DNA of 64,000 bases from Blastocatellia bacterium. GTDB taxonomy: Bacteria; Acidobacteriota; Blastocatellia; Pyrinomonadales; Pyrinomonadaceae. Location of the stretch: the NCBI GenBank assembly GCA_033856915.1, contig JAWVEB010000002.1, forward strand, positions 24,672 through 88,671. Reading direction: 5' to 3'. The translations under genes were made by a program, and so were the position numbers. This document shows positions 40,412-56,574 of this stretch, piece by piece (position 1 is the first letter of the stretch; each line of letters starts with the position of its first letter). The notes under the pieces are model-generated. The model was not told the origin of the DNA, did no database searches, and saw only the letters and a list, made by a program, of their open reading frames with translations.

Positions 40412-42502
40412 TTAATTCAGCGATACGAACTTTCCATTCAACCAACCACGATCGCTCGAGGACTGGTCTTCCTTAGCGCGTCCGTGCTGCATGATCTGAA
40501 TCTCATACCAACTGCCATCGGAACTGAGATTAAGAATGCGCACGCGCGAGTTACGTTCGGCCAGGCCGACCTTGCGGTAATTTGATCCAACGCCTTCCCG
40601 TAGATTCACATCCGTCGACGTGACGCCGGTCCTTCCCACCAGCGAGGGGGCTGGGGGCGGCATGGGAGATGCTGTTGGAGTGTTTCGATTGAAATTAAAG
40701 CCGTTCCACCAGGGCTGCGCGGCAACCAACCAACTCACAATCGAATACATAAGGACTGTGCTGGCAATCAGCCAGAGGGCGGAGACCACCATGCCGTTGA
40801 TGGAATGGGTACTCGTAGATGGAGCAAAAACCCTCGCCGGCCTACTCGCGCGAGACGGCAGGACACCAACAGATCCGTGCCCGTTCAGGTCTAGTCGGTA
40901 GTGTTTGAGAATCCAATCAAGTGGTTCCAGTACGCCTTCCGGGTTGAACGGTGCCACTCGGCCATCGGGCAACCGGCCAAGCGCACTGCAATAGAAGTAA
41001 TGCATATCTTTAAAGTCATGCTCGATGCTGCGCACAAGATTGCCCTCGCCATGGCTTATAAGCCACGCGCGCACTGCCTGCGATTCTGGATCACCTTTTC
41101 GGTGCCCGCCTTTGTTATTACCATCGCCGCTGGTTGCTGTTACCTCTTCGCCAGCCGATTGAATATCCACGGAGAGGCCGAATGCGTCCGCTTTCGTAAC
41201 CACGACCGCGACTGGCACGCTGCCAAAGCGGCTGCCCATGCCGGAATGCTCGCGCAAGGTTCCGATCATGCGGGCATACACATCTTGCGGCTGCTCCTCA
41301 CACGGCTTGATGAGTGTCTCCGCAGCTTTCAGGTCCGAGGCGAAATCCGTTTGGACTCGCGCCAACGAAAAAGGATCGAGAAGGAAGAGAATACCGTGGG
41401 TGTATTCATAATAAGCGTGGCTCCGCAGCACATCGGTTCGCTGGTACAACTCTCCGGCAGCATCATAGACATACATTAGTCCCTCATGCCCGCTGCCATT
41501 TTTGAGATTTACCAGAAAGGCGTCGGGAGAATCCGAGGCCGTTTTATCAAGCAGTATTCCGCGACCAAAGTTTTGCCGACTCTTTTCGAACAAGGTTTGA
41601 TGTTTCTTTTCCGGGAACTCCAGACTTAGAGTTCCGCCGTCCGCGCGTTGCTGTAACTCGCACATGTTAGCCATCAGGAAACTGGTCTTTCCGGCGGCCG
41701 GCCCTCCGACAATAGGTATGTGCAGATTACGGACGACGCCCATTGCCGTGCTTAGCGGCTGCCCACATTCTTTATGTGGACAAATACTAGGCAAGTCATT
41801 GCGGCCAAACAAAAACAGTGTAGGCAGCTTCGTACCGCACTGGCATTGCCGGCGAAGAATGCCGTAACTACCCGGAATCAGTCGCTTATGTTGAACTCCG
41901 CAATGTGGACAAATATAGACAGGGAGGCTGATTTTTTTATAGCATCCGGCATTAGGACAAACGAGAAAGATTCGCCGCCAAAGCATCGAAACGTACTCGA
42001 CGAAACGCAGAAGAAGGCCAAGGCAAAAGGCAAGGGCAGCGCAACTGACCACGATCAAAAGGTGAACGATACCGAAGATGAGATAGGCAATGGCGGCCGA
42101 GACCGCACCCGCGGCGGCCAGCGCGAAGAAGGTAATGCCAAGCGGCCAGGTAAACCAAACACCGCCATTGGTAAAAAACCACGTTCCCGTTTTGACCACC
42201 CACTCAGCAGCAGCGAGATTAGGAACCCAGCTCTGGCGCACGACCAACTCGTAGTCTCGGTATGCCTTACGAAAATAATACTGGCGATACGCCGGCTCCG
42301 GTCCTTCCGGGCCGTCCTTCCAGCCTGTACCAACAAACAACTCTGTCCACATTGTGTGGATGTAGTGGTAAAGGACGACACAGATGAAGGCGACGCAACC
42401 TAATGGGAACAGTATGAACGAGAGCCAAAACAGTACGTAGATATACAGCAGGTAAAGCGCAATCGCTGCAACAATGAGGATGAGGTAAATAACTGCAGCC
42501 AT
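40412..42502 (-). CDS. membrane-anchored zinc-ribbon P-loop GTPase-like protein with C-terminal TM + SH3b-like domain
   Basis: It has ~5 N-terminal TM helices. Zinc ribbons are CPNAGCYKKISLPVYICPHCG and CQCGTKL...CPHKECG. The Walker A is VGGPAAGKTSF, with DxxG at YVYDAAGE and VVVTKAD. A late TM (VVSALWLIASTVLMYSIVSWLVA) follows, then the tail TDVNLREGVGSNYRKVGLAERNSRVRILNLSSDGSWYEIQI. Confidence 0.75.
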   Translation of the reverse strand: MAAVIYLILIVAAIALYLLYIYVLFWLSFILFPLGCVAFICVVLYHYIHTMWTELFVGTGWKDGPEGPEPAYRQYYFRKAYRDYELVVRQSWVPNLAAAEWVVKTGTWFFTNGGVWFTWPLGITFFALAAAGAVSAAIAYLIFGIVHLLIVVSCAALAFCLGLLLRFVEYVSMLWRRIFLVCPNAGCYKKISLPVYICPHCGVQHKRLIPGSYGILRRQCQCGTKLPTLFLFGRNDLPSICPHKECGQPLSTAMGVVRNLHIPIVGGPAAGKTSFLMANMCELQQRADGGTLSLEFPEKKHQTLFEKSRQNFGRGILLDKTASDSPDAFLVNLKNGSGHEGLMYVYDAAGELYQRTDVLRSHAYYEYTHGILFLLDPFSLARVQTDFASDLKAAETLIKPCEEQPQDVYARMIGTLREHSGMGSRFGSVPVAVVVTKADAFGLSVDIQSAGEEVTATSGDGNNKGGHRKGDPESQAVRAWLISHGEGNLVRSIEHDFKDMHYFYCSALGRLPDGRVAPFNPEGVLEPLDWILKHYRLDLNGHGSVGVLPSRASRPARVFAPSTSTHSINGMVVSALWLIASTVLMYSIVSWLVAAQPWWNGFNFNRNTPTASPMPPPAPSLVGRTGVTSTDVNLREGVGSNYRKVGLAERNSRVRILNLSSDGSWYEIQIMQHGRAKEDQSSSDRGWLNGKFVSLN

Positions 42503-42512
42503 GATTTTACAT

Positions 42513-44588
42513 TTAACGCCTCCACCGCATTAAGAGCCCTGAATCGCCGCCGGCTTGGCTGCCGACTAGTTCCTGGGCGATGTTTCCAAAAGTTGAGGTA
42601 AGATCACCTGTTTTGACCAACAGGGCTGCCTGATCGGACGTAGCAATTTCGCGAAGGAACTTTTCATCGGCGCTGCCAAAGCCGATGGCTATGATCTCAA
42701 TTCCTGCTTGATGACATACTTTCGCCTGCTGGATCGCACTCGCTTGACAGGACCAGACTCCATCCGTGAGCACGACGAAATATCGAGATCCTTCGACACC
42801 TTTGAGTTGCTCCAGGGCATGACCAAAGGGGTGCGCAGAATTGCCGCCACCGAGTCCGACCTCCAGTGAGTCAATCGCATGGCTCAGTTTCTTTCCGTCC
42901 TGGGTAGCAAGCTGATCTATGCGCACGGAGTTAGCGAAGGAGACCAGACCAATCGATGTGTGCGATAGATCGCTGCTGCGCACAAATTCATGCATCGCCT
43001 GCTTGGCTTCCGCGAGTGGTGCGCCGCTCATGCTGCCCGAGAGATCAACGGAGAGGTATACGGCCTTATGCGCAATGGCGAGATCCTTCGGCGATTTATA
43101 GATCCAGGACATATCTTCAGGTATGGCTTCCTTGACAACCGTGAGCGAGCGACCCGTGCTCTTCTCGGTGGCCGTCACGCTGATTACGTCGCTGCGGTCG
43201 GACTCGTACGAAATATTCAGTACTGCCAGACCTTTCTTCCCGTGGGGGATGTCACCTATTACGTACTTCCCGACAAACGAACTGTTAGCCGGATCGTCAC
43301 CTTCGCCTTGGGTGACGAAGACCGCAGTGGAGTTATCCCCTTTTTCACGCGTGCGGACCTGGTAAGGACGAACTTCGCTGCATGGTATGGATCGATTCTT
43401 GGGAATCAAAATGCTGTTGAGGTAACGCTCGCCGTCAGCGCTAACCGCTATCATTCCCATGCTGTGGCTCATCACGTCGCGAATACGCGCACTTTTGAGA
43501 AAAGCCAGACCGCCTTTTGCCCTTTTATCTTCGCCATACTCAGCGGCCTGAAGGGCTGCACCCAGGGCAACGCATTCGTCCGGGTTGAGAGCGGTATTGG
43601 CAGGCTTGCAGCTCAATCGTCCGATCAATTTAAGACAGGCCGGCATCCGGGTTGAGCCGCCAACCATAAGCACGCTGCCAATCCGCGAATAGTCAAAGTT
43701 TGTCTCTTCGATTACCTTGCCGATCAGTAGTTCCGTCTGCGAGAGCAAGTCAGCGGTCAGGCTTTCAAACAAATCGCGCGTGATCTCGATCCGATCCATC
43801 TTGCCCTGGCAGTTGATCGCGACGATTGCGTTAGTGCGCGCCGATAAGCTTTTCTTCGCTTCCTCGGCGCGGATTAAGATCTCTTGGAAGGTGTATGGGT
43901 CGTCCAGCGGATTGATGCCATGGCGTTGTTCGAACTGCTCACAAAGATACTGAACGAGGCGGTCATCCCAATCCTTGCCGCCGAGATTGTGATTACCATC
44001 CGAGCCAATCACTTCAATGCCGTCGGGAGAAACCCGCACCAGCGAGATGTCAAAGGTGCCACCGCCGAGGTCGTACACCATTACCGTCTCTTCCCGCGTG
44101 TTCTGCTTCAAACCATAAGCAATGGCCGCCGCCGTGGGCTCATTGATCATTTGCACAACTTCCAGTCCGGCCAGCTCTCCGGCATCTTTTGTGGCCAGCC
44201 GCGCGGCATCCTGGAAATACGCCGGTACAGTGATAACGGCGCGCCGGATTGGTTTGTTGAGTTCCGCCTCACCATCGGTCTTAAGTTTTTTGAGCACTTC
44301 GGCTGAGAGTTCTGACGGCGTGTAGTTGCGGCCCTGATAGCTATAAACGGCCGCCGTACCCATGTCGCGCTTAAAGAATTGCGCGGTGTTCTCCTTTTCC
44401 AGAGCCATTTCCTGCTTGGCTGCCTCACCAACTATCGCACTTCCATCCGGGCGCAGTTGCACAACCGACGGCGTTATCTTGGTCCCCTCGCTGTTTGCCA
44501 GGACCTCGGGTCTGTCATAGTCGTTGATGTAAGCGATGGCCGAGTTGGTGGTGCCCAAGTCAATGCCGACGAGAACTTCTGTATTCAT
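42513..44588 (-). CDS. Hsp70-family ATPase (NBD + beta-SBD) fused to a C-terminal von Willebrand A domain
   Basis: Hsp70 motifs are VGIDLGTTNSAIA, VITVPAYF...MINEPTAAAIAYG, VMVYDLGGGTFDISLV and VLMVGGSTRMPA. The vWA MIDAS context is VYLSVDLSGSMSG...IGLVSFANS...YFVVLTDG. Confidence 0.88.
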   Translation of the reverse strand: MNTEVLVGIDLGTTNSAIAYINDYDRPEVLANSEGTKITPSVVQLRPDGSAIVGEAAKQEMALEKENTAQFFKRDMGTAAVYSYQGRNYTPSELSAEVLKKLKTDGEAELNKPIRRAVITVPAYFQDAARLATKDAGELAGLEVVQMINEPTAAAIAYGLKQNTREETVMVYDLGGGTFDISLVRVSPDGIEVIGSDGNHNLGGKDWDDRLVQYLCEQFEQRHGINPLDDPYTFQEILIRAEEAKKSLSARTNAIVAINCQGKMDRIEITRDLFESLTADLLSQTELLIGKVIEETNFDYSRIGSVLMVGGSTRMPACLKLIGRLSCKPANTALNPDECVALGAALQAAEYGEDKRAKGGLAFLKSARIRDVMSHSMGMIAVSADGERYLNSILIPKNRSIPCSEVRPYQVRTREKGDNSTAVFVTQGEGDDPANSSFVGKYVIGDIPHGKKGLAVLNISYESDRSDVISVTATEKSTGRSLTVVKEAIPEDMSWIYKSPKDLAIAHKAVYLSVDLSGSMSGAPLAEAKQAMHEFVRSSDLSHTSIGLVSFANSVRIDQLATQDGKKLSHAIDSLEVGLGGGNSAHPFGHALEQLKGVEGSRYFVVLTDGVWSCQASAIQQAKVCHQAGIEIIAIGFGSADEKFLREIATSDQAALLVKTGDLTSTFGNIAQELVGSQAGGDSGLLMRWRR

Positions 44589-44638: not shown

Positions 44639-47188
44639 TCAACGCAATCCAAACCATTGTTTGATACGTACCAGGCCACCTGGCTCCTGGAACATGGTCC
44701 GCCACTTGATCCAACGCAGATGAGCGTTATGACTTTCCATCAGACCTTTCTCAACGGCCTCCAAATCCCTCGCGCGCCAGCTGTGCAGCGCCTTCGGAAG
44801 GACATCGATCAACAGGTAGTTAGCTATTTCGCCGCCCTGCGTCCTTTCGGTGGCGATCCAGATTCTGAACAAGCGAGCCACTTCTCGCGCTTTTCCGGAG
44901 GTATGCCTGGCCAATGAGGCCGCAATCTCCTGCCCATACCAACCTAGAAAAGGTCCGGCTCGTTGACTCCCGTAGGTCCTGATTAACAGGTGGTAGTGTG
45001 CGTCTTCATCTTTGACGTTAATGAGACGACGGGCGAGCAATCTGTAAATGGTGGTCTTGGCTTGTTCGTCCAGGCCGACGCCACGCTGCTTGAGAAACAC
45101 CAGCGCATCCTCGATGGCAACTACCGCGTCACGCCCCTCAAGCAGACCGCTGGCGAAATGACAAGCAACAACGGTTAACGACTTGTCTCCCAGAGTCTCG
45201 AAAATCTCTTTGGAGCTCAGCCGATCTTTCAACTCTTTTTGTTTCGGATCCGACAAGCCCTCGTCGGTGACGACCAGCAGGGGGACCAGGGAGCGCGTTA
45301 TACCCGGGTCCAACACTCGCAGGGCCTGCATCTGATCAAGTAGCCAGGCAGCCTCAGCTAGTGTAGGCATGCACTGCTGCCAGACTGCCACAAACGCATT
45401 GCTAATATTTTCAGCCGACAAAGTCAGGCCAAAACGCTGCGCTGCGGCCAGACATTGCTGGAAAGCCTGGAGGCGCGCATCCGGACCGGCCGATGACAGC
45501 GACGCCTGTGCAGCCATTAAACGAAAATACAGAGCCAGGTTCTTTTGCTCGGTGGCATAGGTCACAAGAGTATTGAAGAGTTCTGGCTGGCTCAGCCATT
45601 GCGCCGCGCCAGTGAACGCGTTTGGCTGACTTACTTGAATCGCGAGATACTCACCGATGCCATAAACGATATCGCGCATTCCCACTCGATGAATAAGCCC
45701 GGCCACAATCTGCCGCACTGGAACGTTGGACAGCGCCGGAGCGACAATTGTCTTGCCCAGGTGGCGCAACATCTCGTCTGGCTCATTAAGAAAGCCCAGT
45801 TTGTCACCAAGTTGCAGAAGCACGCATAAGCGTCTGGGTTCCTCCGTTTGACGAACTTGCTTCATCCAAAGCAGGCGCAGCGGTTGCAATTCGCTATCGA
45901 GCTCAGTCGACAACTGCAGCTGGGATAGCGCGGCCAATATGACTTCCGTTGCAGCACTGACGCTTACGTCCCTGATGAGCCATTCAAGATACGGACGCTC
46001 AATCAGTTCCCTGACCTCAGCATGAGTTTCCTCGTTGCCCGCGGCTAGGAAGAGATCCGTATATGCCTCAACCACCTCGCGGCTGAACCCGACCTTGCTC
46101 ATTCGATCAGAGAGTAGGGTTCGAATCTGTTCGGCCTTGAAATGAGCAAGGTGGCCGGCGCACCACTTAATAATCCGGGCGGTATCGGTGCCGGGCGTAG
46201 CGAACCCTGAAACCAGCGCATGACAGGCGAAAGCCGTATCGAGTTCCTCAAGCGGCACGTCAGCCGCAACCTGCTCAGCAAAGCCGCTGAACCCGGCAAC
46301 GCCTTCCGCATTATTGTCGCGATAGGCGGCTGCGATCTGCGCGGCAAACCCTGAGACATGCACCATTGGAGTAAAACGCTCACCCTGAAAGTCGAAGACA
46401 GAGTATTGATGTTCGATCTCATGCGGCGCGAATTTGAAGTCAGAGTCAGACGTGGTACCAACTATTAGAAACTCACTCTGGTATGGATTCTTGACGTAGG
46501 TGTTGAACGTCAATCGCAATGCGAGATGAGACGGCAGGGAGTACGAGGCGGCGGCGATCCAGAGGGTGATGGTTTCGTCGTCATCAACAATGACGATGCG
46601 CCGGCCTGTGCCGAGCGCGTCCTCAACCGCAGTCAGGAAACGCGGCAGATGTGGCAGGCGATTGTTCTCACGCAAAAACTCTTCGACTGCCTCAAGGTTG
46701 ATGACGCCTCCTGCTCTTGGTTCATCCAATGGGGGCAACGACTTTGCAGAGCTCTCGCTTGTTTCCCACGTTTCGGACCGCCAGAGTTCGACAGGGAGAA
46801 GGCCTTTGCCTTTGATATCCCTTACCGGGTCGAGAGCAACAAGTGTGTGTGTAAAGTAGTTGCCGAACCGTCCGGAGTAATCCGCGCCCAGGTACTTCGC
46901 CTGCGCCAGCAAAGCGCATCCATCGCTAAGACGCTGGTAGAGTAATGATATCGGGAATCGCTCGATCTCTTCCGCCGTGGGCCGGCTCGGCGCACTGATC
47001 GGCGGCACGTACAAACCGAGGCGTTCAATCTGCTGCAACACTGACGGGTTGATGGTGTCGCTGGCTGCATTGATCTGGAACCCCTTGCTGCCGCGCAGGC
47101 CAATCTCGCACGATGTGTAGTAGGCTTGCAAAAAGCTCATCCTCAGTTCCTCCGGCCACGCACGACGTTGAGTTTGTGGAGAATCCAC
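44639..47188 (-). CDS. large alpha-helical protein, GAP1-like (GTPase-associated protein); probable start at 47140
   Basis: The probable N-terminus is MSFLQAYYTSCEIGLRGSKGFQINAASD. I recall this YTSC..G..GFQ motif from GAP1-N type domains, from memory and unverified. The remainder is helical. The ATG at 47140 lies 2 nt after the stop of the upstream GTPase gene. Confidence 0.55.
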   Translation of the reverse strand: MDSPQTQRRAWPEELRMSFLQAYYTSCEIGLRGSKGFQINAASDTINPSVLQQIERLGLYVPPISAPSRPTAEEIERFPISLLYQRLSDGCALLAQAKYLGADYSGRFGNYFTHTLVALDPVRDIKGKGLLPVELWRSETWETSESSAKSLPPLDEPRAGGVINLEAVEEFLRENNRLPHLPRFLTAVEDALGTGRRIVIVDDDETITLWIAAASYSLPSHLALRLTFNTYVKNPYQSEFLIVGTTSDSDFKFAPHEIEHQYSVFDFQGERFTPMVHVSGFAAQIAAAYRDNNAEGVAGFSGFAEQVAADVPLEELDTAFACHALVSGFATPGTDTARIIKWCAGHLAHFKAEQIRTLLSDRMSKVGFSREVVEAYTDLFLAAGNEETHAEVRELIERPYLEWLIRDVSVSAATEVILAALSQLQLSTELDSELQPLRLLWMKQVRQTEEPRRLCVLLQLGDKLGFLNEPDEMLRHLGKTIVAPALSNVPVRQIVAGLIHRVGMRDIVYGIGEYLAIQVSQPNAFTGAAQWLSQPELFNTLVTYATEQKNLALYFRLMAAQASLSSAGPDARLQAFQQCLAAAQRFGLTLSAENISNAFVAVWQQCMPTLAEAAWLLDQMQALRVLDPGITRSLVPLLVVTDEGLSDPKQKELKDRLSSKEIFETLGDKSLTVVACHFASGLLEGRDAVVAIEDALVFLKQRGVGLDEQAKTTIYRLLARRLINVKDEDAHYHLLIRTYGSQRAGPFLGWYGQEIAASLARHTSGKAREVARLFRIWIATERTQGGEIANYLLIDVLPKALHSWRARDLEAVEKGLMESHNAHLRWIKWRTMFQEPGGLVRIKQWFGLR

Positions 47189-48318
47189 AGCAGCGGGTCT
47201 TCCACGCGAAACGGCGCGACACCCATCGGCAAGCGGCCCTGGGAATCGGGCGGCGATCCGAGCGCAGAGACTCCAAAGTAAGAGAAGGTTTCAAAGTTGT
47301 GCTGCAAGAACAGATCAAGCCCTGGCCCCACCCACTGGGCCACATGGGCGCGCATGCTGTCGTTCACCTGCTGAGCGTCGGCGGTATTGAAATAGCCGTC
47401 ATGATCGGCCGCATGGTGTACCGGCGAACCGGGTTCGAAGAGGTCATGCATCTCGTCAACTTTGGAGAAGGCAAGCGCGACCGGCGTCTGGATTTTCTCG
47501 TTATGACTCAACCCGTGGGATTGACGAATCAGTTGTGAAACGCGCCCGATGATCTCTTGTGGCTCGGTGTTTTCCGATGGCAGCGCGGTCGTAGTCTTGA
47601 GCTGGTCGCGCACTGCACGGATCTGCAGCGGGTCCAGCAGGAAGATGATCCCATGTGAGTTCGCCAAATACTTCGTCTCTGTCGACATCAGATCAAGATG
47701 CGTCAGATCTTCGCCAGCAGTGTCAAAGAAAACGAGATTACTCTTGCTCAAGCCTTTGAAAAGAGTTCTGCGCTTTTGCAGACTAAGGCGATAAACAAGC
47801 GGATATCGAACGCTGATGTCCTGGCGACCAGATTTTGTAAATGGAATCACTATCCGCTCGTCGTAGATATATCGCTTAAACTCCTTTTTGTAACGGTCGC
47901 GAGTCTGATCGTCCAGTTCGTAAAAGGAGGCGTCGAAGCTTTGGCCCACACGGTTCTTGAGTTCATTAATTAGAACGGCAATATAGTGACTCTTGCCTGC
48001 CTCTTTAGCTCCGATCAGTGCAACGGTGTAGCTGTCTGTCGTACCGAAGTTCCACGGCAACTCGTTGTGGCAATGATGGCAAACCATTTTTGTTGTTTCC
48101 ATTCCACAGTTGCATGTTGCTCGCACAGCCGGTCGGAGCCAGTTGCTCTTTGGTCTAAAAACGCGCTGCATTAATGGCGGCGGATCCACACGTTGATAAG
48201 CGCCGAAGGGTGCATCTTTTTCCAAAGCGCAACGACTCGCATTAGGATTGATACAGCGAAAGGCCACCTGATGGGGCGGATATCTCTCAAAACAGTAAGG
48301 ACAGATCAGTTGGCGCAT
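47143..48318 (-). CDS. soluble zinc-ribbon P-loop GTPase-like protein
   Basis: Zinc ribbons are CPYCFERY...FRCINPNASRC and CNCGMETTKMVCHHCHNELP. The Walker A is LIGAKEAGKSHYI, with DxxG at VFFDTAGED and an (N/S)KxD-like AFSKVDE. Confidence 0.75.
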   Translation of the reverse strand: MRQLICPYCFERYPPHQVAFRCINPNASRCALEKDAPFGAYQRVDPPPLMQRVFRPKSNWLRPAVRATCNCGMETTKMVCHHCHNELPWNFGTTDSYTVALIGAKEAGKSHYIAVLINELKNRVGQSFDASFYELDDQTRDRYKKEFKRYIYDERIVIPFTKSGRQDISVRYPLVYRLSLQKRRTLFKGLSKSNLVFFDTAGEDLTHLDLMSTETKYLANSHGIIFLLDPLQIRAVRDQLKTTTALPSENTEPQEIIGRVSQLIRQSHGLSHNEKIQTPVALAFSKVDEMHDLFEPGSPVHHAADHDGYFNTADAQQVNDSMRAHVAQWVGPGLDLFLQHNFETFSYFGVSALGSPPDSQGRLPMGVAPFRVEDPLLWILHKLNVVRGRRN

Positions 48319-48319
48319 C

Positions 48320-51300
48320 CTAAGTGATCCTTAGTTGTTGAGGCGGCGGATCGATCAAACGAAAGGTGTGCGCCTGAGGCCCATCGCGAAAGAAGGCGCG
48401 CAAGTAACAAGGACGACGCACGGCGTCCAGAGTGAACTCATGTGAAACCGGAGTTCCACTGTGCAAGCTTAGGTCACTGATAGTAGCGAGCAGAATGCCG
48501 TTATTGTTAGGTAGCGGCTGAATGTCGCCGCGCTTGGCAATTACTACAATTTCGGGGAGGTGCTTAGCCTCTCTCTCCGCGTTAAAGGTGATAGTTATAC
48601 GGTTGCGATGTAACCAGTTACCGCGCGAAATCGAGTAGGAAATAGAAAGAGGTAAACTCGTGCGCAGTAAATCGTGCGCTCCTGGACTGATACCCGAGCT
48701 GTAGATGTCTTCGCCGTCGACCTGGGTAACCGCAAAGACGACTACGTAATAAGGAGCTTTCGCCGGATCATTGATACGAAAACCACCCTCGCCATCATAC
48801 TCTCCCCGCGAGATGCGGTGCGTAGTCGCGCGAGCGTCCAGTGGATCATGGGGATACGCATCATGCCGCCAGGCCACAACGGCCAATCGAGAGTCCTCGG
48901 GCCAGCGCCATTGCAACTGCAAGTACCGACCGAAATCCACCGCTTTAAGGTGTGATACGTCCTGAGTGGTCAGATAGCGGCGAGCATTGCCAATCACAGC
49001 CACATCCCCAGCTATAGTCACTGGCACATAGAACGCAGGCTGAGTCGAGGGAGCAAAATCAACCGCAAGGTTATTCAATTCAATGCGCAGCGGTACGCCC
49101 AGAGCGGCCAGTTTTGCGGCCGGAATCTGCTCACCGATCCGCCACTCTGGCTTTTGAAACGTGCGGTAGAAACTGACCGCGCCATGCTTAGGTGGAACCC
49201 ATGAGACATGCACCACGCCCTCTTCAAGAGTGATCTGAAACTCGTCGATTGCCGGTGGGGGCTGCTCAGGCCTCACGCTCCGGACAATGCCGGATGTAAA
49301 GACCGGCTGTCCCTTCGCGTCTCGATACTCAACCACCACCCGGTAGTAATAGAGATGACCGTTGCTCACTCCCCGGTCCAGGAGATTGTGTGGCCCGGTG
49401 GGCGCGATTTCTAGACCATCGCCGGCTCTGCTCGGTGGCCTGCTTTCCTGCCTGAAGACACGCACGCGCCCTTCAGGCACATCAAATTCCCAGGAACAGT
49501 TGACCAGGCCGCCGCTCGCTTCGACGCTGAGGTTGCTTACTTCTTGCATCACCAGCATGCCGGCGGAAGAAACTCCCTTGGAAAGCACACCTGTACGTTC
49601 AGTAAACACTGTGTAAAAGACATGGCTGGCGGGACGCGCCCTTTGATCAAGGCATGAGGTGGTAGCGACCCTCGCAACCACGTCGCCGTCGGCAAGCGAC
49701 AACGCCGCTCGTCCTTCACGACGAACGATGATGTACTCGCTTCCCCCTACCGCCGGACTGGGCTGCCACTCGACCTGCACCTTTCCCTCGTGCGATTGAG
49801 CGAGCACGTTCGCGGCCGGTTCCGGTGGACAGCGTTGAAGCCCTCTTTGTGCTTCTTCAGCGTCAGCGACAATCTGAAGGGCGTCCTGGTAGGCAAAAAC
49901 TGCTTCGTTCAACCTTCCCTTTTGTTCACACTCTCGGGCCTTCGTCAAGAGCCCCTTACACAGTTTCAGCTTTTCCTCTACTTCGCCTTTCAGTTGCGGG
50001 AGATCTTTGCCGTCAAGCCCTAGATAGTTCGGTGCGACCGTGGCCAGAGAGGCGAGCTTGGTTCGTGCGGCAAAGAACCGGCGAGCCGCCACGGTTTCAT
50101 CAATTTCTCGCCGCAGGCCGCGGACCTGTTCGACGGCAACTTCAATTCGGTCGAGCAGCTTAGCCACATCACCCGAGCGTTCCCACAACCTCTCGGCTTC
50201 GCGTGCCGTCTCATGCGATTCTTCGATCCGACCTTCACCAAGTTCCAGTTGGGCCTGGCGTACGAGCAGGCGAACGCGCGGCAAGTCGCCGGTTTTGAAC
50301 CCACATTTGGCGCAGGCAGGATCACTGGCCGCCGCGCGCGAAGAGCACCTGGGACAGGTGGTCCATAGCTCCGCCCCGCAGGTTGTACAGCTCTGCGCGT
50401 TTGTCTTAAGGGGCACCAGGGCCAGGCATTTCGCGCAACGAACTGTCTCTTCGTCGGTGGACCATTCGACAGCAGCGCCGTACTCTCGCGCCAGAGTCAG
50501 AATGTATTCGGCAGCGGTCTCCTGCGCCAGACCGTGACTCAGGGCCACACCGAGCAACTGCTTGAACTCAGCTTTCGTGATCAGTTTGTCGCCCGCCGCC
50601 AATCGCACTTCCGGTCGCAGTACTTCAACAGCTTCATAGGCCAGAGCGGCGTCATACTTCGCGGCATCGCCGTCAACCATGTGCGTCTTAATCAGACCCA
50701 GCAGCAGATTGGCGTTGGTTAAGGTAAAGTCGCTTTTCTTTTGCCGCCACTCCAACTCGCGTTTGCGAAGACTTTCGGTCAGTCGGTCTTTCGAACAGCC
50801 CCGGTCGACTCCCAGGAACTCATATAGGTCGCGCTTCTGTAAGACATTGAGCCCGCTTCTGATCTGTTCGCGGGTCCCCTTGGGCAGTCCTTCGTTTGTC
50901 GGCAGTCGTACCGAAGATTCCCTGATCGGCACGCGCACCCGCGATCGGATCTCCTGTTCCGTCAAACTCTCGCACCGGTGTTGGGCCAATAGCACACTAA
51001 GTTCACCTGGGTCGATATAGCCTTTCGAGGCGACCATTCGGATTGACCTATCCAGTGCAGCGAAACGCTTCTCTCGGGATTTCTTACGCTCTGCCTCGAC
51101 AAGTTCGCGTACCGCTTTGCGAGCTTCCGAATCCAGCAGATTACGCCTGGCATCCTGCTGTTCTTTTGGCGCCAGCAAGACTGACAACACTTTGCCAAAG
51201 CGCGGATTCTGTTTACTTTTGTTCCAGTAGGCGTGGACAGTCGTGATCGCGGTCTCGATCTCTTTCGGGTCTGAGACTGTGATCGGCAGATCATAGCGCT

Positions 51301-51394
51301 CAAAGCAGTCGGGTAACCGGCTCTCACTCTTGAAAGCGTCCACGGCCGGGCTCAGCACCCGTTTGATATAATCAGCTTCGTCGAATTTCCACAT
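48320..51394 (-). CDS. J-like / double zinc-ribbon protein with helical (TPR-like) middle and C-terminal beta-rich (FN3/Ig-like) repeats; paralogue of 51610..53349
   Basis: The first ~375 aa are homologous to the next gene, and aa 1-67 are identical. The J-helix-like segment is RDLYEFLGVDRGCSKDRLTESLRKRELEWRQKK, with no HPD. The zinc ribbons are VRCAKCLALV...CTTCGAELWTTCPRCSS...CAKCGF. The C-terminal ~500 aa are rich in short beta-strand patterns. Confidence 0.7.
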   Translation of the reverse strand: MWKFDEADYIKRVLSPAVDAFKSESRLPDCFERYDLPITVSDPKEIETAITTVHAYWNKSKQNPRFGKVLSVLLAPKEQQDARRNLLDSEARKAVRELVEAERKKSREKRFAALDRSIRMVASKGYIDPGELSVLLAQHRCESLTEQEIRSRVRVPIRESSVRLPTNEGLPKGTREQIRSGLNVLQKRDLYEFLGVDRGCSKDRLTESLRKRELEWRQKKSDFTLTNANLLLGLIKTHMVDGDAAKYDAALAYEAVEVLRPEVRLAAGDKLITKAEFKQLLGVALSHGLAQETAAEYILTLAREYGAAVEWSTDEETVRCAKCLALVPLKTNAQSCTTCGAELWTTCPRCSSRAAASDPACAKCGFKTGDLPRVRLLVRQAQLELGEGRIEESHETAREAERLWERSGDVAKLLDRIEVAVEQVRGLRREIDETVAARRFFAARTKLASLATVAPNYLGLDGKDLPQLKGEVEEKLKLCKGLLTKARECEQKGRLNEAVFAYQDALQIVADAEEAQRGLQRCPPEPAANVLAQSHEGKVQVEWQPSPAVGGSEYIIVRREGRAALSLADGDVVARVATTSCLDQRARPASHVFYTVFTERTGVLSKGVSSAGMLVMQEVSNLSVEASGGLVNCSWEFDVPEGRVRVFRQESRPPSRAGDGLEIAPTGPHNLLDRGVSNGHLYYYRVVVEYRDAKGQPVFTSGIVRSVRPEQPPPAIDEFQITLEEGVVHVSWVPPKHGAVSFYRTFQKPEWRIGEQIPAAKLAALGVPLRIELNNLAVDFAPSTQPAFYVPVTIAGDVAVIGNARRYLTTQDVSHLKAVDFGRYLQLQWRWPEDSRLAVVAWRHDAYPHDPLDARATTHRISRGEYDGEGGFRINDPAKAPYYVVVFAVTQVDGEDIYSSGISPGAHDLLRTSLPLSISYSISRGNWLHRNRITITFNAEREAKHLPEIVVIAKRGDIQPLPNNNGILLATISDLSLHSGTPVSHEFTLDAVRRPCYLRAFFRDGPQAHTFRLIDPPPQQLRIT
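50270..51394. repeat. paralogous 5' module, copy 1 (matches 52225..53349)
   Basis: The ~315 nt at the 5' ends are near-identical between copies (1 aa change in the first ~105 aa). There are further identical patches, e.g. gcttgaactcagctttcgtgatcagtttgtcgcccgccgccaatcgcacttccggtcgcag. Overall identity is ~80% aa over ~375 aa. Confidence 0.85.
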
Positions 51395-51609: not shown

Positions 51610-53349
51610 TTAGTGACCTAGCGATTTCGCGGACTGGTGTGACACAAAGGAATGCGATTCGGACCAAGCCGCCTCCTTACTTCTCAACGCCCAAAGTGTA
51701 AAGGTTCCCTTAAAGCCCTTCATCTCCACGTCGTCATGCCGCACCCAATTGAGGCTCCGATGGTGCTTCGCCCAATAATCATCTACGTGTTCTTTCGCTT
51801 GGTTACTCAACCAAATTTCACTCGCTTCTTTGATGGCGCCGAGCACCCGAGCGGCAAAGTTCACAGTTCCGCCAAAGACGTCATTATCTTCAACCTGCAT
51901 CGGACCGATATGAATGCCCGCGCGAATTTGCACGTGCGAGTGACCAGTCTCCGCTTGCAACGCCATGCCGTAGTCCAACGCCTTATCCACAGACTTAAAC
52001 GTCACCATGAAGCTGTCGCCGATGGTTTTGACTTCCCGCCCGCTGTATTCATTAATTAGTTTGCGGCTTTGCCCGAAGTGCGCGCGCCGGACTTCGTTCA
52101 TGCTCTCTCCCTTAAGTTCTTCACCGAGAGATGTCGAGCCGACGACATCCGTGAAGATAATCGCCAACACGACGCGATCGCCCCCGGCCCAGGCAGAAAA
52201 ACTCGGACCGCTTATTCCGCTGCGCGCCGACTCCACGAACATTCCCATTTTGAATCCACATTTGGAGCAGGCAGGATCGTCTACCGGCATGCGTGCAGAG
52301 CACTTTGGACAGTTGGCCCATAGACCTTCTCCGCACGTTGTGCAACTCTCCGCTTTGGTCTGGAGGCGTACCTGAGCAAGGCAGTTCGCACAATGAACTA
52401 CATCTTCGTCGATAAACCATTCGACGACAGCGTCGTACTCTCGCGCCAGGGTCAGAATGTATTCCGCGGCAGTTCCCCTCGCCAGACCGTGGCTCAGTGC
52501 AACACGCAGTAACTGCTTGAACTCAGCTTTCGTGATCAGTTTGTCGCCCGCCGCCAATCGCACTTCCGGTCGCAGAACCTCGAGAGTCTCGTACGCGAGC
52601 GCGGCATCGTACTTCGCGGGATCGCCGTCAATCAGGTACGCCTTAATGAGACCTAGCAGCAGATTCGCCGCAGTCAAGTTAAAGTCGCTTTTCTTTTGCC
52701 GCCACTCCAACGCACGTTTGCGAAGACTCTCAGTCAGTCGCTCTTTCGAACCACCTCGCTCGACTCCGAGGAAATCGTACAGGTCGCGCTTCTGCAGAAC
52801 GGCGAGCGCGCTCCTGATCTGTTCCCGCGTCCTCTTGGGCAGCCCCTCAGAAATCGGAGAGCGCAAGGAAGATTCCCGGATCGGAACGCGCACCCGCGAC
52901 TTGATCTCATCTTCCGTCAAACTCTCGCGCTGGAAACGAGCCACTAGGTCATTGAACTCACCGGGACCGATATAGCCCTTCGAAGCGATCACTTCGATCG
53001 ACCTGTCCAGAGCCGCGACTCGCTTTTCACGGATCTTCTTACGCTCCGCCTCGACAAGTTCGCGTACCGCTTTGCGAGCTTCCGAATCCAGCAGATTACG
53101 CCGGGCATCCTGCTGTTCTTTTGGCGCCAGCAAGACTGACAACAACTTGCCAAAGCGCGGATTCTGTTTACTTTTATTCCAGTAGGCGTGGACAGTCGTG
53201 ATCGCGGTCTCGATCTCCTTCGGGTCGGAGACTGTGATCGGCAGATCATAACGCTCAAAGCAGTCCGGTAACCGGCTCTCACTCTTGAAAGCGTCCACGG
53301 CCGGGCTCAGCACCCGTTTGATATAATCAGCTTCGTCGAATTTCCACAT
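51610..53349 (-). CDS. J-like / double zinc-ribbon protein fused to a class III nucleotidyl (adenylate/guanylate-type) cyclase domain
   Basis: It has the same N-terminal module as 48320..51394 (DLYDFLGVERGGSKERLTESLRKRALEWRQKK; CANCLAQV...CTTCGEGLWANCPKCSA...CSKCGF). Cyclase motifs are VLAIIFTDVVGSTSL, REVKTIGDSFMVTF, IRAGIHIGP, FGGTVNFAARV and VEMKGFKGTFTLWAL. Confidence 0.85.
   Translation of the reverse strand: MWKFDEADYIKRVLSPAVDAFKSESRLPDCFERYDLPITVSDPKEIETAITTVHAYWNKSKQNPRFGKLLSVLLAPKEQQDARRNLLDSEARKAVRELVEAERKKIREKRVAALDRSIEVIASKGYIGPGEFNDLVARFQRESLTEDEIKSRVRVPIRESSLRSPISEGLPKRTREQIRSALAVLQKRDLYDFLGVERGGSKERLTESLRKRALEWRQKKSDFNLTAANLLLGLIKAYLIDGDPAKYDAALAYETLEVLRPEVRLAAGDKLITKAEFKQLLRVALSHGLARGTAAEYILTLAREYDAVVEWFIDEDVVHCANCLAQVRLQTKAESCTTCGEGLWANCPKCSARMPVDDPACSKCGFKMGMFVESARSGISGPSFSAWAGGDRVVLAIIFTDVVGSTSLGEELKGESMNEVRRAHFGQSRKLINEYSGREVKTIGDSFMVTFKSVDKALDYGMALQAETGHSHVQIRAGIHIGPMQVEDNDVFGGTVNFAARVLGAIKEASEIWLSNQAKEHVDDYWAKHHRSLNWVRHDDVEMKGFKGTFTLWALRSKEAAWSESHSFVSHQSAKSLGH
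52225..53349. repeat. paralogous 5' module, copy 2 (matches 50270..51394)
   Basis: See copy 1. Confidence 0.85.
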
Positions 53350-55056: not shown

Positions 55057-55832
55057 TTCCCTGTTTCCTCCGTTGGTTGATCGGCACTCACGGCCTTTTC
55101 GTTGTCTGTTGCCTCATCCAGGGCGGCGCCCCGTGTGAAGCGAAACACCTCAGCCTCTAAAATGCGAATGATCTTTGTGTCAGTGCGGAAGCCTACGCGC
55201 ACGACACGCGCAATTGCCCTATCAAAGCCAGCGTTCTGCGTGGGAACGACGCCAAGAGCCTTCTGTTCTTTGGAATTGAATGGTGAGCCCTCTAGAGCTT
55301 CGTACCGCTCAACTCCGTGCCGGTAGAGGACATCCTCGACGGCATCGCAGAAAGACTTGAAATCACGTGAGATCTCTTTCATGTCTGCGTCGGCGCGCTC
55401 TTCAAATCTTTTCCCGGTCTGCTTGAGGTCGTCGTAGAGCCTTATGAGATCACGAAATAGCGGAGCGACGGCTTGCGAAATCTCACCGGCACGGAGCTGC
55501 TGATTCTCCTGGTGCAAACGGTCAATTATGCGTTCGCGATCGCTGGAAAGAACGTTAGCTTCCTCGAGAAGGGCGGCTAGCTGCTCGACACGTTGACTCA
55601 AAATCTGAATACCCTCGTTATGCTGGTCCGTGGCAGCCTCAACCTGTTGGTTGGGGACGACCTCTGCTGTAACAACTTGTTCTACTGAAGGGACGTCAGT
55701 GGGTTCTTCTGACACAACTGAATTCGTCGGCGTAATCTCGGAAGCGGGCGGCTGCTCGCCTTCCGGTTCGTTCTGTTCTGCGAGACCCGTGCTTGTTTCA
55801 TCTACACTCATGAAAGTTCCCTCTACAGTCAA
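55053..55832 (-). CDS. GrpE-like nucleotide exchange factor (probable start ATG at 55811)
   Basis: It has an acidic N-terminus and a long coiled coil (VEQLAALLEEANVLSSDRERIIDRLHQENQQL). The C-terminal beta domain is GVERYEALEGSPFNSKEQKALGVVPT...IARVVRVGFRTDTKIIRILEAEV. GAGGGA precedes the ATG at 55811. Confidence 0.7.
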   Translation of the reverse strand: MTVEGTFMSVDETSTGLAEQNEPEGEQPPASEITPTNSVVSEEPTDVPSVEQVVTAEVVPNQQVEAATDQHNEGIQILSQRVEQLAALLEEANVLSSDRERIIDRLHQENQQLRAGEISQAVAPLFRDLIRLYDDLKQTGKRFEERADADMKEISRDFKSFCDAVEDVLYRHGVERYEALEGSPFNSKEQKALGVVPTQNAGFDRAIARVVRVGFRTDTKIIRILEAEVFRFTRGAALDEATDNEKAVSADQPTEETGK

Positions 55833-56406: not shown

Positions 56407-56574
56407 CTATAACCAGCCTTTTCCATGGCACACCCCGCACTTAACGACGCCGGAGCCATGACAATTCTTGCACTGGGATGAAGAAGTTAAGAGGCTACCG
56501 CTTAGCCTGCCTTTACCATGACACTTCGGGCACTTTACGGAGCCTTTTCCGCTGCAGGTGTTGCACTTTGGCAT
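56407..56574 (-). CDS. 55-aa DnaJ-type cysteine-rich zinc-finger mini-protein (below the ORF-track cutoff)
   Basis: Hand translation gives MPKCNTCSGKGSVKCPKCHGKGRLSGSLLTSSSQCKNCHGSGVVKCGVCHGKGWL, which contains four CxxCxGxG repeats. AAGGAGG lies 9 nt upstream of the ATG. Confidence 0.7.
   Translation of the reverse strand: MPKCNTCSGKGSVKCPKCHGKGRLSGSLLTSSSQCKNCHGSGVVKCGVCHGKGWL

What the first reader, a model, noticed from the sequence alone, without database searches (positions are those of the whole stretch)
42513..44588. Hsp70 ATPase fused in one polypeptide to a vWA domain with a complete MIDAS motif
Seen: a full actin-fold Hsp70 NBD (all three signature motifs) and a beta-SBD are followed by DLSGSMSG...SFANS...LTDG, a DxSxS...T...D MIDAS. 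Established: vWA domains are usually driven by AAA+ MoxR-type chaperones in ternary conflict systems. Inference: Hsp70 may replace MoxR as the NTPase partner here, delivering or gating a metal-dependent protein-binding module. I do not know of a characterised Hsp70-vWA fusion.
Basis: partly seen in the sequence, partly recalled or inferred. Interest (0 to 1): 0.6.

Follow-up and report, generated by a model that had tools for sequence, protein, structure and literature searches.

The report
Lidless Hsp70 fused to vWA domain
This gene really does encode one protein joining an Hsp70 chaperone motor to a vWA protein-binding domain. It is a conserved but untested part of a published, computationally predicted bacterial GTPase/Hsp70 "conflict" operon, not a one-off oddity.

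Summary
Window 42513-44588 on the MINUS strand is one uninterrupted 691-aa ORF. It has an Hsp70 NBD and beta-SBD (Pfam 8.9e-118), no alpha-helical lid, a conserved 20-residue connector, and a vWA domain (Pfam 1e-17).

The AF2 model is confident (pLDDT 89). The same architecture occurs in at least 810 protein clusters across several phyla, so it is not a frameshift artefact.

The "complete MIDAS" is only partly right. DxSxS (D515/S517/S519) and D609 are invariant, but the canonical Thr is absent. An Asn (N583, 66/72) sits at or next to that position.

The gene lies in a GAP1-N2-type DO-GTPase system of the Hsp70/GrpE theme (Kaur, Burroughs, Iyer & Aravind, eLife 2020). Its neighbours are a lidless partner Hsp70, GrpE, J-like/Zn-ribbon/FN3 adaptors, two DO-GTPases and GAP1.

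About 41 of 47 sampled fusion loci carry these neighbours. The other six keep only GrpE and the partner Hsp70, or sit next to another vWA protein, and four of them have a canonical Thr MIDAS.

The paper's text does not mention the fusion, and nothing in the system has been tested experimentally. The most likely role is an in-cis adaptor that tethers a private Hsp70 cycle to a specific partner. This is a new member of a known, predicted kind, of moderate interest.

The parts
42513..44588 (-). Whole gene: 691-aa Hsp70(NBD + SBD-beta)-connector-vWA fusion protein, including the stop codon
   Evidence: It is a single ORF. Pfam HSP70 scores 8.9e-118 and VWA 1e-17. The AF2 model has pLDDT 89.4.
43524..44588 (-). 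Hsp70 nucleotide-binding domain, residues 1-355, with intact catalytic-type residues (D10, K73, E150, D173, T178, D180)
   Evidence: These columns are invariant in alignment A1. The region aligns to M. tuberculosis DnaK. Foldseek hits NBD structures.
43128..43499 (-). Interdomain linker (ARIRDV, polar instead of DnaK's VLLLDV) plus beta-sandwich substrate-binding domain, residues 364-487
   Evidence: Alignment with the genome's own DnaK, the column counts and the AF2 strands over 369-487 support this.
43068..43127 (-). Conserved connector (consensus P-x-D-M-S-W...S-P, residues 488-507) at the position where the alpha-helical lid of canonical Hsp70 begins. No lid is present.
   Evidence: D492 and P500 are invariant. 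The motif is kept in fusions from all contexts and in an L001 paralogue that has a different C-terminal domain. Alignment with DnaK shows the lid position.
42561..43067 (-). vWA domain, residues 508-676
   Evidence: Pfam VWA, VWA_2 and VWA_3 match. AF2 gives a b-a-b pattern with pLDDT 85-93. ArnB 8S05 hits at 4e-4.
43032..43046 (-). MIDAS DxSxS motif (D515-L-S517-G-S519)
   Evidence: The stretch translates to DLSGS. D515, S517 and S519 are invariant in 72/72 homologues.
42840..42842 (-). N583, the residue at (or one after) the canonical MIDAS Thr position
   Evidence: HMMER aligns it to ArnB T110. The column is N in 66/72. It is N in 37 and T in 3 of 40 scorable GAP1-linked fusions, and non-GAP1 fusions have the canonical GST motif.
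42762..42764 (-). D609, the MIDAS Asp of LTDG, followed by the clade-specific invariant W612
   Evidence: The stretch translated ends in ...VVLTD. D609, G610 and W612 are invariant.
40412..42502 (-). Downstream operon partner: multi-TM, Zn-ribbon DO-GTPase with a C-terminal TM segment and SH3b domain
   Evidence: Pfam DO-GTPase2 scores 1.5e-9, DO-GTPase1 6.8e-7 and SH3_3 1.3e-5.
44639..47188 (-). GAP1 (GAP1-N2, GAP1-M and GAP1-C domains)
   Evidence: Pfam scores are 7.6e-34, 3.8e-20 and 1.7e-16.
47143..48318 (-). Soluble Zn-ribbon DO-GTPase
   Evidence: Pfam DO-GTPase2 scores 1.9e-7. Orthologues occupy the same position in related loci.
48320..51394 (-). 1024-aa J-like / double Zn-ribbon / FN3-repeat adaptor
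   Evidence: Pfam DZR matches. Orthologues carry Fn3_SaeA hits. The gene is conserved next to the fusion in many loci.
51610..53349 (-). Paralogue of the adaptor's N-terminal module, fused to a class III nucleotidyl cyclase
   Evidence: Pfam Guanylate_cyc scores 2e-16. A cyclase-domain protein occupies the same position in L091.
53374..55056 (-). Partner Hsp70 (560 aa): an NBD, a ~65-aa insert, an SBD-beta and no lid
   Evidence: Pfam HSP70 scores 5.3e-104. See also the alignment. Partner Hsp70s form their own clade with 100/100 support.
55053..55832 (-). Dedicated GrpE nucleotide-exchange factor
   Evidence: Pfam GrpE scores 6.3e-14.
56407..56574 (-). 55-aa DnaJ-type CxxCxGxG zinc-finger mini-protein at the head of the operon
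   Evidence: The sequence shows the motif. The equivalent 55-aa gene in L085 carries PF00684.

Best explanation
The gene encodes a catalytically competent but lid-less Hsp70. Its alpha-helical lid has been replaced, through a conserved 20-residue connector, by a vWA domain with a modified MIDAS (DxSxS...N...D).

It is a conserved core subunit of the Hsp70/GrpE theme of the GAP1-N2-type DO-GTPase conflict systems. These are predicted anti-invader or abortive systems that have never been tested.

In that system it belongs to a private chaperone cycle. The other members are a paralogous lid-less Hsp70, a dedicated GrpE, a J-like/Zn-ribbon/FN3 adaptor (here duplicated, one copy carrying a cyclase) and a DnaJ-type Zn-finger mini-protein.

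Proposed mechanism (inferred):
1. The vWA domain acts as a built-in adaptor. Through its MIDAS face it holds one specific partner, either a core component such as GAP1, a DO-GTPase or the FN3 adaptor, or an invader protein presented by them.
2. The ATP/ADP cycle of the attached NBD and SBD-beta is timed by the J-like adaptor and GrpE. It clamps, remodels or releases that partner.
3. A sensing event is thereby converted into assembly or activation of the membrane-bound GTPase/effector arm.

This makes it the Hsp70 counterpart of AAA+-MIDAS machines (MoxR-vWA pairs, Rea1/midasin, VWA8).

Shown here: the architecture, residue conservation, operon membership and sporadic distribution. Inferred: every functional step. 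The confidence of 0.55 is for the whole statement. Identity and system membership alone would be ~0.95, and the adaptor-chaperone mechanism alone ~0.45.
For: - Architecture and fold are supported.
- The ATPase-type residues and the DxSxS and D of the MIDAS are invariant in 72 homologues.
- The fusion is kept as one ORF in at least 810 clusters. The representative search with the vWA part gave 71 clusters at E<1e-30, and most full-length hits among the 150 listed are ~690 aa with the vWA at ~485-690.
- The operon content matches the published system: GAP1-N2/M/C, two DO-GTPases, Hsp70 and GrpE (PMC7159879).
- The same neighbours appear in Phaeospirillum, Zixibacteria, Ardenticatenales, Acidobacteriota, Metabacillus litoralis, Planctomycetaceae, a TARA metagenome and Pyrinomonadaceae. 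They also appear in ~31 further metagenome loci.
- Fusion NBDs form one clade (97/90) and partner Hsp70s another (100/100). Both are separate from housekeeping DnaK, including the genome's own.
- The GAP1-linked fusions share a derived MIDAS signature (G-x-[GC]-N...P-F and TDGxW). Four of the six fusions outside GAP1 systems keep the canonical GST...AL and TDGxP. This suggests the binding face adapted to a system-specific partner.
- The whole system is present in only 1 of 301 sampled genomes of the phylum, and it sits among other defence-type genes. That pattern is typical of conflict systems.
Against: - No component of any DO-GTPase/GAP1 system has been tested experimentally. Only 4 papers in the library even mention them.
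- No ligand of the vWA was identified. A scan of the partner Hsp70 tail for an invariant acidic residue found none.
- The canonical MIDAS Thr is missing, so metal-dependent binding may be weakened or altered.
- The interdomain linker is polar (ARIRDV) rather than VLLLDV, and the J-like module is not recognised by Pfam DnaJ. Canonical J-stimulated allostery is therefore not assured.
- Kaur et al. favour a different role for Hsp70, as multimeric assemblies.
- Six of ~47 fusion loci lack GAP1 and DO-GTPases. The conserved minimal module may therefore be fusion + partner Hsp70 + GrpE, and the vWA partner need not be a GAP1-system protein.
- The orientation of the vWA relative to the SBD could not be inspected.
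Confidence: 0.55

Rival explanations
1. Assembly or polymer model, the view of Kaur et al. The two lid-less Hsp70 paralogues form NTP-dependent multimeric assemblies, playing the role that tubulin plays in the sister GAP1-N2 theme. The vWA cross-links protomers or anchors the polymer, and does not present a client for remodelling.
For: - The paper proposes that tubulin and HSP70 form multimeric assemblies in DO-GTPase systems, and vWA proteins accompany tubulin in the sister theme.
- Both Hsp70s lack the lid.
- Lid-truncated BiP crystallises as oligomers, and such entries are among the structural matches (7a4u, 7a4v).
- Extra Hsp70 paralogues occur in some loci (L001, L108, L120).
Against: - No filament-type interface was tested here.
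- A dedicated GrpE and J-like adaptor argue for a turnover cycle rather than a static polymer.
- The invariant catalytic residues fit both models equally.
Confidence: 0.25
2. Intramolecular gate, the first reader's 'gating' idea. The vWA replaces the lid functionally as well as positionally. It closes over the SBD-beta cleft or binds the invariant Asp of the connector (D492) as a pseudo-ligand. Substrate access is then controlled by metal or nucleotide state.
For: - The vWA starts where lid helix A would start.
- The connector is unusually conserved, with invariant D492 and P500.
- pTM 0.73 suggests a non-random domain arrangement.
Against: - No coordinates or PAE were available, so no contact was observed.
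- A paralogue in L001 keeps the same connector but carries an unrelated C-terminal domain. The connector therefore belongs to the Hsp70 module, not to a vWA-specific latch.
- MIDAS faces normally bind partners in trans.
Confidence: 0.1
3. Not a conflict system. The module is a dedicated maturation chaperone, for example for metal-centre or complex assembly, as with CoxD/CoxE, NorQ/NorD and CbbQ/CbbO. It would serve a membrane complex built from the GTPases.
For: - vWA/NTPase pairs are best known for such roles (established knowledge).
- No classical toxin-type effector is recognisable in the operon.
- PADLOC has no match.
Against: - The system is extremely patchy: 1 of 301 genomes in the phylum, and absent from both sampled genomes of the same genus.
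- Some relatives are linked to DGR/FGE-sulfatase elements (L089) or lie next to an integrase (L081).
- The surroundings look like a defence island.
- The adaptor repeats vary between loci.
Confidence: 0.05
4. Assembly or sequencing artefact: two adjacent genes (Hsp70 and vWA) joined by a frameshift error.
For: One metagenome contig (L123) has the Hsp70 and the vWA in separate overlapping frames.
Against: The ORF is uninterrupted. The top 120 homologous clusters, from independent samples and several phyla, all carry both domains, and most are ~690 aa. The connector is itself conserved.
Confidence: 0.01

Closest known systems
GAP1-N2-type DO-GTPase conflict system, Hsp70/GrpE theme (Kaur, Burroughs, Iyer & Aravind, eLife 2020, PMC7159879)
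   Same: The operon has GAP1 with the N2, M and C domains, and a soluble Zn-ribbon DO-GTPase. It also has a multi-TM DO-GTPase ending in a TM segment and SH3. Hsp70, GrpE and an FN3-repeat protein with a J-like module are present too. The distribution is sporadic.
   Different: The paper's text mentions HSP70, GrpE and 'a second gene with only the HSP70 domain'. It does not mention a vWA in this theme or any Hsp70-vWA fusion, and its figure could not be read. Here both Hsp70s keep the SBD-beta and both lack the lid. The paper says the theme is mainly in Actinobacteria and Firmicutes. The loci found here are mostly from Acidobacteriota, Chloroflexota, Planctomycetota, Pseudomonadota and Zixibacteria.
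MoxR-vWA chaperone/adaptor pairs (RavA-ViaA, CbbQ-CbbO, NorQ-NorD, CoxD-CoxE) and single-chain AAA+-MIDAS proteins (Rea1/midasin, VWA8)
   Same: An NTP-driven remodelling motor is coupled to a vWA/MIDAS adaptor. In midasin and VWA8 the two are in one polypeptide, as here (established knowledge).
   Different: The motor here is an actin-fold Hsp70, not a P-loop AAA+ ring. No MoxR gene is in the operon. The MIDAS lacks the Thr.
Canonical DnaK-DnaJ-GrpE
   Same: The NBD fold, the catalytic-type residues, the SBD-beta and a GrpE partner are shared. The best structural matches are ATP-state DnaK and BiP.
   Different: The protein scores far below the DnaK equivalog cut-offs. It has no alpha-lid and no C-terminal tail, and its interdomain linker is polar. 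It carries a 6-residue deletion in subdomain IIB that it shares with its partner paralogue. It forms a separate clade from the genome's own DnaK.
ArnB vWA protein of Sulfolobus (PDB 8S05; PMC12852372)
   Same: It is the closest solved vWA by sequence (4e-4). DxSxS and TD align with its MIDAS ligands D46, S50, T135 and D136.
   Different: ArnB has the MIDAS Thr (T110), a beta-sandwich and a phospho-regulated helical bundle, and it partners a ZnF/FHA protein. It has no Hsp70.
CoCoNuT CnuD/CnuCD: Hsp70-like NBD/SBD units fused to McrB/McrC, with separate TerY-type vWA genes (PMC11090510)
   Same: An Hsp70-like NBD/SBD is recruited into a GTPase-centred defence operon that also encodes vWA domains.
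   Different: In CoCoNuTs the Hsp70-like ATPase motifs are degenerate and the vWA is a separate gene. Here the catalytic residues are invariant and the vWA is fused.

Membership tests
Hsp70 (PF00012) | Actin-fold NBD with phosphate-1/phosphate-2/adenosine motifs and catalytic-type residues | tested here: met
   Pfam scores 8.9e-118. D10, K73, E150, D173, T178 and D180 are invariant. Foldseek matches DnaK and BiP at E 1e-50.
Hsp70 (PF00012) | Beta-sandwich substrate-binding domain after the interdomain linker | tested here: met
   The protein aligns to DnaK through residue 484. AF2 predicts strands over 369-487.
Hsp70 (PF00012) | Alpha-helical lid (SBD-alpha) | tested here: not met
   The Pfam match stops at profile position 494 of 599. 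No helices follow residue 487 before the vWA. Alignment with the genome's own DnaK confirms this.
DnaK equivalog (NCBIfam NF001413/TIGR02350) | Score above the curated equivalog cut-off | tested here: not met
   The scores are 394 bits vs 648 and 385 bits vs 823.
vWA domain (PF00092) | Rossmann-like beta-alpha-beta fold matching the family profile | tested here: met
   VWA scores 65 bits against a cut-off of 23.8. The AF2 secondary-structure order has pLDDT 85-93. ArnB, BatB and ANTXR2 are hit by sequence.
vWA with perfect MIDAS (DxSxS...T...D) | DxSxS | tested here: met
   D515, S517 and S519 are invariant.
vWA with perfect MIDAS (DxSxS...T...D) | Middle Thr ligand | tested here: not met
   ArnB T110 aligns to N583. 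That column is N in 66/72. The alternative register gives G582.
vWA with perfect MIDAS (DxSxS...T...D) | Distal Asp | tested here: met
   D609 is invariant.
vWA with perfect MIDAS (DxSxS...T...D) | Actual metal binding | not testable with these tools
   This needs biochemistry or a structure.
GAP1-N2-type DO-GTPase system, Hsp70/GrpE theme | GAP1 with an N2-type N-terminal domain | tested here: met
   PF20013 scores 7.6e-34, with GAP1-M and GAP1-C also matching.
GAP1-N2-type DO-GTPase system, Hsp70/GrpE theme | One or two DO-GTPases, one with Zn ribbons and one with N-terminal TM helices and a C-terminal TM plus SH3-type domain | tested here: met
   PF19993 and PF19975 match on 47143-48318 and 40412-42502, and SH3_3 matches on the latter.
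GAP1-N2-type DO-GTPase system, Hsp70/GrpE theme | Linked Hsp70 and GrpE genes | tested here: met
   Two Hsp70 genes and GrpE lie on the same strand in the same cluster.
GAP1-N2-type DO-GTPase system, Hsp70/GrpE theme | FNIII-repeat protein fused to a DnaJ domain or TPR | tested here: inconclusive
   The 1024-aa protein has a J-like stretch by eye and a DZR, but no Pfam DnaJ hit at E<0.01. FN3 hits are seen only in orthologues.
GAP1-N2-type DO-GTPase system, Hsp70/GrpE theme | Function in biological conflict | not testable with these tools
   Only indirect evidence exists: 1 of 301 genomes carries it, and the neighbourhood looks like a defence island.
MoxR-vWA ternary systems | MoxR-type AAA+ ATPase gene paired with the vWA gene | tested here: not met
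   No AAA+/MoxR hit was found in any of the eight operon proteins scanned.

The most novel reading that the evidence does not exclude
The Hsp70-vWA fusion defines a new class of chaperone-adaptor machine. It would be an Hsp70 whose lid has been exchanged for a MIDAS-type docking domain. One specific client is then captured by the vWA and mechanically remodelled by the ATP cycle of the attached NBD/SBD. This step would act as the trigger or threshold switch of a bacterial immune system. That is the actin-fold counterpart of MoxR-vWA and midasin. The lid position would be a general 'adaptor slot', as suggested by paralogues with other C-terminal domains.
Probability: 0.3. Interest if true: 0.7.

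Novelty: new member of a known kind. Interest (0 to 1): 0.38.

Why it matters
Hsp70s are among the best-studied molecular machines, yet every characterised one closes its substrate pocket with an alpha-helical lid. Here a large natural family (hundreds of clusters in at least six phyla) has swapped the lid for a metal-dependent protein-docking domain. The family also runs on its own GrpE and J-like adaptor inside a predicted immune operon.

If the adaptor model is right, three things follow. Hsp70, like AAA+ MoxR, can be hard-wired to a single client through a vWA domain. The untested DO-GTPase/GAP1 systems gain a concrete entry point for mutation. And vWA becomes a common component of all three GAP1-N2 themes.

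If the model is wrong, the locus is still a well-annotated example of a published system.

Tried and rejected
1. The genome-contig scan with the full-length alignment chose generic Hsp70 peptides. It returned mostly housekeeping DnaK loci; only L001-L004 of 80 were fusions. I repeated the scan on metagenome contigs with a vWA-only alignment.
2. A single-sequence AF2 run of the vWA part alone gave pLDDT 42 and was discarded.
3. The 3D question, whether the vWA sits over the SBD cleft, could not be answered. No coordinates or PAE are returned, and the long Foldseek alignments with rmsd ~28 Å are not informative for the vWA.
4. PADLOC gave no meaningful hit for any operon protein.
5. The held supplement of Kaur et al. 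contains no 'HSP70' string, so I could not check whether their tables list the fusion.
6. I looked for an invariant acidic residue in the partner Hsp70's C-terminal tail as a candidate MIDAS ligand. None is conserved at 80%.
7. I considered loss of the DnaK Arg that contacts the J-domain HPD (numbering from memory) as a family signature. I rejected it because the position varies (Q, S, R) among fusions.
8. The frameshift-artefact reading was rejected.
9. The taxon of the window was not determined. The nearest named homologues are Pyrinomonadaceae MAGs. However, 300 other sampled genomes of the window's phylum lack the gene.
Full report
**1. Observation**

The finding's coordinates are exact, but the gene is on the minus strand. 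ORF 42513..44588(-) is a single 691-codon frame with an ATG start.
- Pfam gives HSP70 at 8.9e-118 (residues ~6-484, profile positions up to 494 of 599). It gives VWA at 1e-17 (510-662), with VWA_2 and VWA_3 in support.
- NCBIfam DnaK and HscA models hit strongly but far below their equivalog cut-offs (394 bits vs 648). This is an Hsp70 paralogue, not the housekeeping DnaK.
- The genome has separate Hsp70 genes on other contigs.
- The best solved relative is M. tuberculosis DnaK, aligned over residues 6-484.

**2. Structure**

I predicted the structure with AlphaFold2 using a 72-sequence alignment of homologues. Mean pLDDT was 89.4 and pTM 0.73. The model contains:
- an NBD (1-355);
- a short disordered loop (356-363);
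- a linker strand (369-372);
- a beta-sandwich SBD (377-487);
- two one-turn helices (494-503);
- a clean beta-alpha-beta Rossmann domain (508-676).

No lid helices are present. Foldseek's best matches are ATP-state, domain-docked DnaK and BiP structures and lid-truncated BiP, with TM up to 0.85 on the target.

Alignment with the genome's own DnaK shows the vWA begins where lid helix A would begin. It also shows the hydrophobic interdomain linker (D-[VI]-L-L-L-D-V) replaced by the polar ARIRDV.

**3. MIDAS**

D515, S517, S519 and D609 are invariant in all 72 homologues. The canonical Thr is absent.
- HMMER aligns the window's N583 to T110 of ArnB (PDB 8S05). T110 is a crystallographic MIDAS ligand, together with D46, S50, T135 and D136 (PMC12852372).
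- The column holds N in 66 of 72 homologues, and T or S in two.
- In a wider set, GAP1-linked fusions share G-x-[GC]-N-x-x-x-P-[FL] and T-D-G-x-W. The column holds N in 37 and T in 3 of 40 scorable.
- Four of the six fusions outside GAP1 systems (L003, L004, L121, L138) keep the canonical motifs G-S-T-[DN]-L..A-L and T-D-G-x-P-[DN].
- Spacing to the following helix allows an alternative register in which the Thr position falls on G582.

SFANS plays no part. The T of LTDG is the neighbour of the MIDAS Asp.

**4. Not an artefact**

A word-indexed search with residues 380-691 found 810 clusters at E<=1e-3.
- The best 120 all carry PF00012 plus PF00092, and most are ~690 aa.
- They come from independent JGI, ENA, NCBI and Logan samples.
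- Named members are from Pyrinomonadaceae, Blastocatellia, Thermoanaerobaculia, Ardenticatenales, Zixibacteria and Phaeospirillum.

An exhaustive phmmer search of the vWA part alone against 1.8 billion representatives gave 71 clusters at E<1e-30 and 564 at E<1e-10. Most full-length hits among the 150 listed are ~690 aa with the match at ~485-690. The vWA of this family is therefore a distinct clade that lives mostly on Hsp70.

The connector between the SBD and the vWA (P-x-D-M-S-W...S-P) is itself conserved, with invariant D492 and P500.

**5. Context**

All neighbours lie on the same strand with minimal gaps. In gene order they are:
- a 55-aa DnaJ-type CxxCxGxG mini-protein and a small TM protein;
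- GrpE;
- a 560-aa partner Hsp70, also lid-less, with a ~65-aa insert between the NBD and SBD;
- a J-like/Zn-ribbon module fused to a class III cyclase;
- its 1024-aa paralogue with FN3-type repeats;
- a Zn-ribbon DO-GTPase;
- GAP1 (N2, M and C domains);
- the Hsp70-vWA fusion;
- a multi-TM DO-GTPase ending in a TM segment and SH3.

This is the GAP1-N2-type GTPase-centric system, second (HSP70/GrpE) theme, of Kaur, Burroughs, Iyer & Aravind (eLife 2020).
- That paper's text mentions HSP70, GrpE, a DnaJ/TPR-FNIII protein and "a second gene with only the HSP70 domain".
- It describes vWA proteins only in the tubulin and kinase themes.
- No paper in the library contains "Hsp70-vWA" or its variants.
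- Only four papers mention DO-GTPases at all, and none is experimental.
- I could not see Figure 6B, so the fusion may be drawn there.

**6. Does the fusion always travel with the GTPases and GAP1?**

Neighbourhoods of diverse homologues show the same parts list. The usual order is GrpE, Hsp70, Hsp70-vWA, J/FN3, ZnR-GTPase, GAP1, TM-GTPase.
- This order is seen in Phaeospirillum, Zixibacteria, Ardenticatenales, Acidobacteriota and Metabacillus litoralis.
- The window's closer relatives (87% and 67% identity) share the window's variant order, with the fusion between GAP1 and the TM-GTPase.
- A TARA locus links the fusion to a GAP1-N2 system with bAvd and FGE-sulfatase (DGR-type) genes.

I then scanned metagenome contigs with a vWA-only alignment. 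I scored the loci with HMMs built from the operon proteins.
- About 31 further fusion loci carry DO-GTPase, GAP1 or J/FN3 neighbours.
- Six fusion loci do not. L004, L138, L113 and L111 have only GrpE and a partner Hsp70. L003 and L121 sit next to a ~1000-aa protein with its own vWA.
- In total roughly 41 of 47 loci are in-system. A few are duplicate contigs.

The conserved minimal module is therefore fusion + partner Hsp70 + GrpE, and most members are embedded in GAP1-N2 systems.

**7. Phylogeny and distribution**

In a maximum-likelihood tree of NBDs, eight of nine fusion NBDs form a clade with 97/90 support. That clade also holds the vWA-less third Hsp70 of L001. Seven of eight partner Hsp70s form a clade with 100/100 support.

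The two clades group weakly together (88/84), apart from housekeeping DnaKs, including the genome's own. In L004 the fusion and its partner are sisters.

In 301 genomes sampled evenly from the window's phylum, the fusion's vWA and GAP1-N2 were each found in-system only in the window's own genome. They were absent from both congeners and 15 genomes of the same family. This sporadic pattern and the defence-type neighbourhood fit a horizontally moving conflict system.

**8. Mechanism**

Shown here:
- an ATPase-competent Hsp70 core;
- an SBD-beta and no lid;
- a conserved rigid-looking connector;
- a vWA with a conserved but modified MIDAS;
- obligatory genetic linkage to a partner Hsp70, GrpE and (usually) a J-like adaptor, GAP1 and DO-GTPases.

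Inferred: the vWA is a built-in adaptor that docks one specific partner. The Hsp70 cycle, timed by the J-like adaptor and GrpE, then clamps, remodels or releases that partner to switch the system on. This is the Hsp70 analogue of MoxR-vWA pairs and of single-chain AAA+-MIDAS proteins.

The derived MIDAS signature is not seen in the fusions with canonical-MIDAS motifs outside GAP1 systems. This suggests adaptation of the binding face to a system-specific ligand.

Rival readings are:
- the assembly/polymer model of Kaur et al.;
- an intramolecular gate;
- a non-conflict maturation chaperone.

None could be excluded computationally here. A scan for a conserved acidic ligand in the partner's tail was negative.

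**9. Verdict**

The locus is a new member of a published, purely predicted system. The fusion is a conserved, widespread component of that system that is not described in the paper's text. Interest is moderate. It would rise if the adaptor-chaperone mechanism were demonstrated.

Noticed in passing
L001:7809-9947 (also L108:3106-5601 and L120:6873-8189): Some systems carry a third Hsp70 paralogue without a vWA. In L001 its NBD is almost identical to that of the neighbouring fusion, and it keeps the D-L-S-W..S-P connector. Its last ~220 aa form an unrelated alpha/beta domain with no Pfam hit. This suggests the lid position is a swappable adaptor slot.
   Followed up: partly
L003:9992-15380, L121:8051-13466; L004:9794-14570, L138, L113, L111: Hsp70-vWA fusions occur outside GAP1/DO-GTPase systems in two forms. 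One form sits next to a ~1000-aa protein with its own C-terminal vWA. The other has only GrpE and a partner Hsp70; L004 also has TPR, M14 peptidase and HEAT genes nearby. L003, L004 and L121 keep the canonical MIDAS Thr motif; L111 and L113 carry the derived Asn motif. These may be undescribed systems.
   Followed up: partly
L123:1301-3705 and L099:8454-10630: In L123 the Hsp70 and vWA parts lie in separate overlapping frames, which is either a split gene or a sequencing frameshift. In L099 the fusion is broken by a frameshift inside the NBD. Both are single metagenome contigs.
   Followed up: no
window 42513-44588 versus L081, L083, L084, L085 and L002: There are two operon orders. Most phyla place the fusion directly after the partner Hsp70. 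The window and its close relatives (L091, L092) place it between GAP1 and the TM-GTPase.
   Followed up: yes
window 56407-56574 (-) and 56056-56247 (-): A 55-aa protein made only of four DnaJ-type CxxCxGxG zinc-finger repeats and a 63-aa TM protein head the operon. The same mini-protein occurs in L085 (PF00684). The private Hsp70 cycle seems to use DnaJ parts split over several genes.
   Followed up: partly
window 53374-55056 (-): The partner Hsp70 is also lid-less and carries a ~65-aa insert between the NBD and SBD-beta. It ends in a short helix resembling the start of lid helix A ([MI]-S-x-E-E). Partner Hsp70s form their own clade with 100/100 support.
   Followed up: partly
L089:121-11450: This GAP1-N2/Hsp70-vWA system from a TARA ocean metagenome is flanked by a bAvd-like gene and an FGE-sulfatase (formylglycine-generating enzyme fold) protein. 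That is the signature of a diversity-generating retroelement target.
   Followed up: no
whole genome (G000) and 300 other genomes of its phylum: GAP1-N2 (PF20013) and the fusion's vWA were found in-system only in the window's genome, 1 of 301. The island is therefore a recent acquisition in this lineage.
   Followed up: yes
P0121 (2332 aa), P0161 (2044 aa), P0181 (1680 aa): The closest non-Hsp70 relatives of this vWA clade are giant proteins with 7-11 tandem vWA domains. Their nature was not examined.
   Followed up: no
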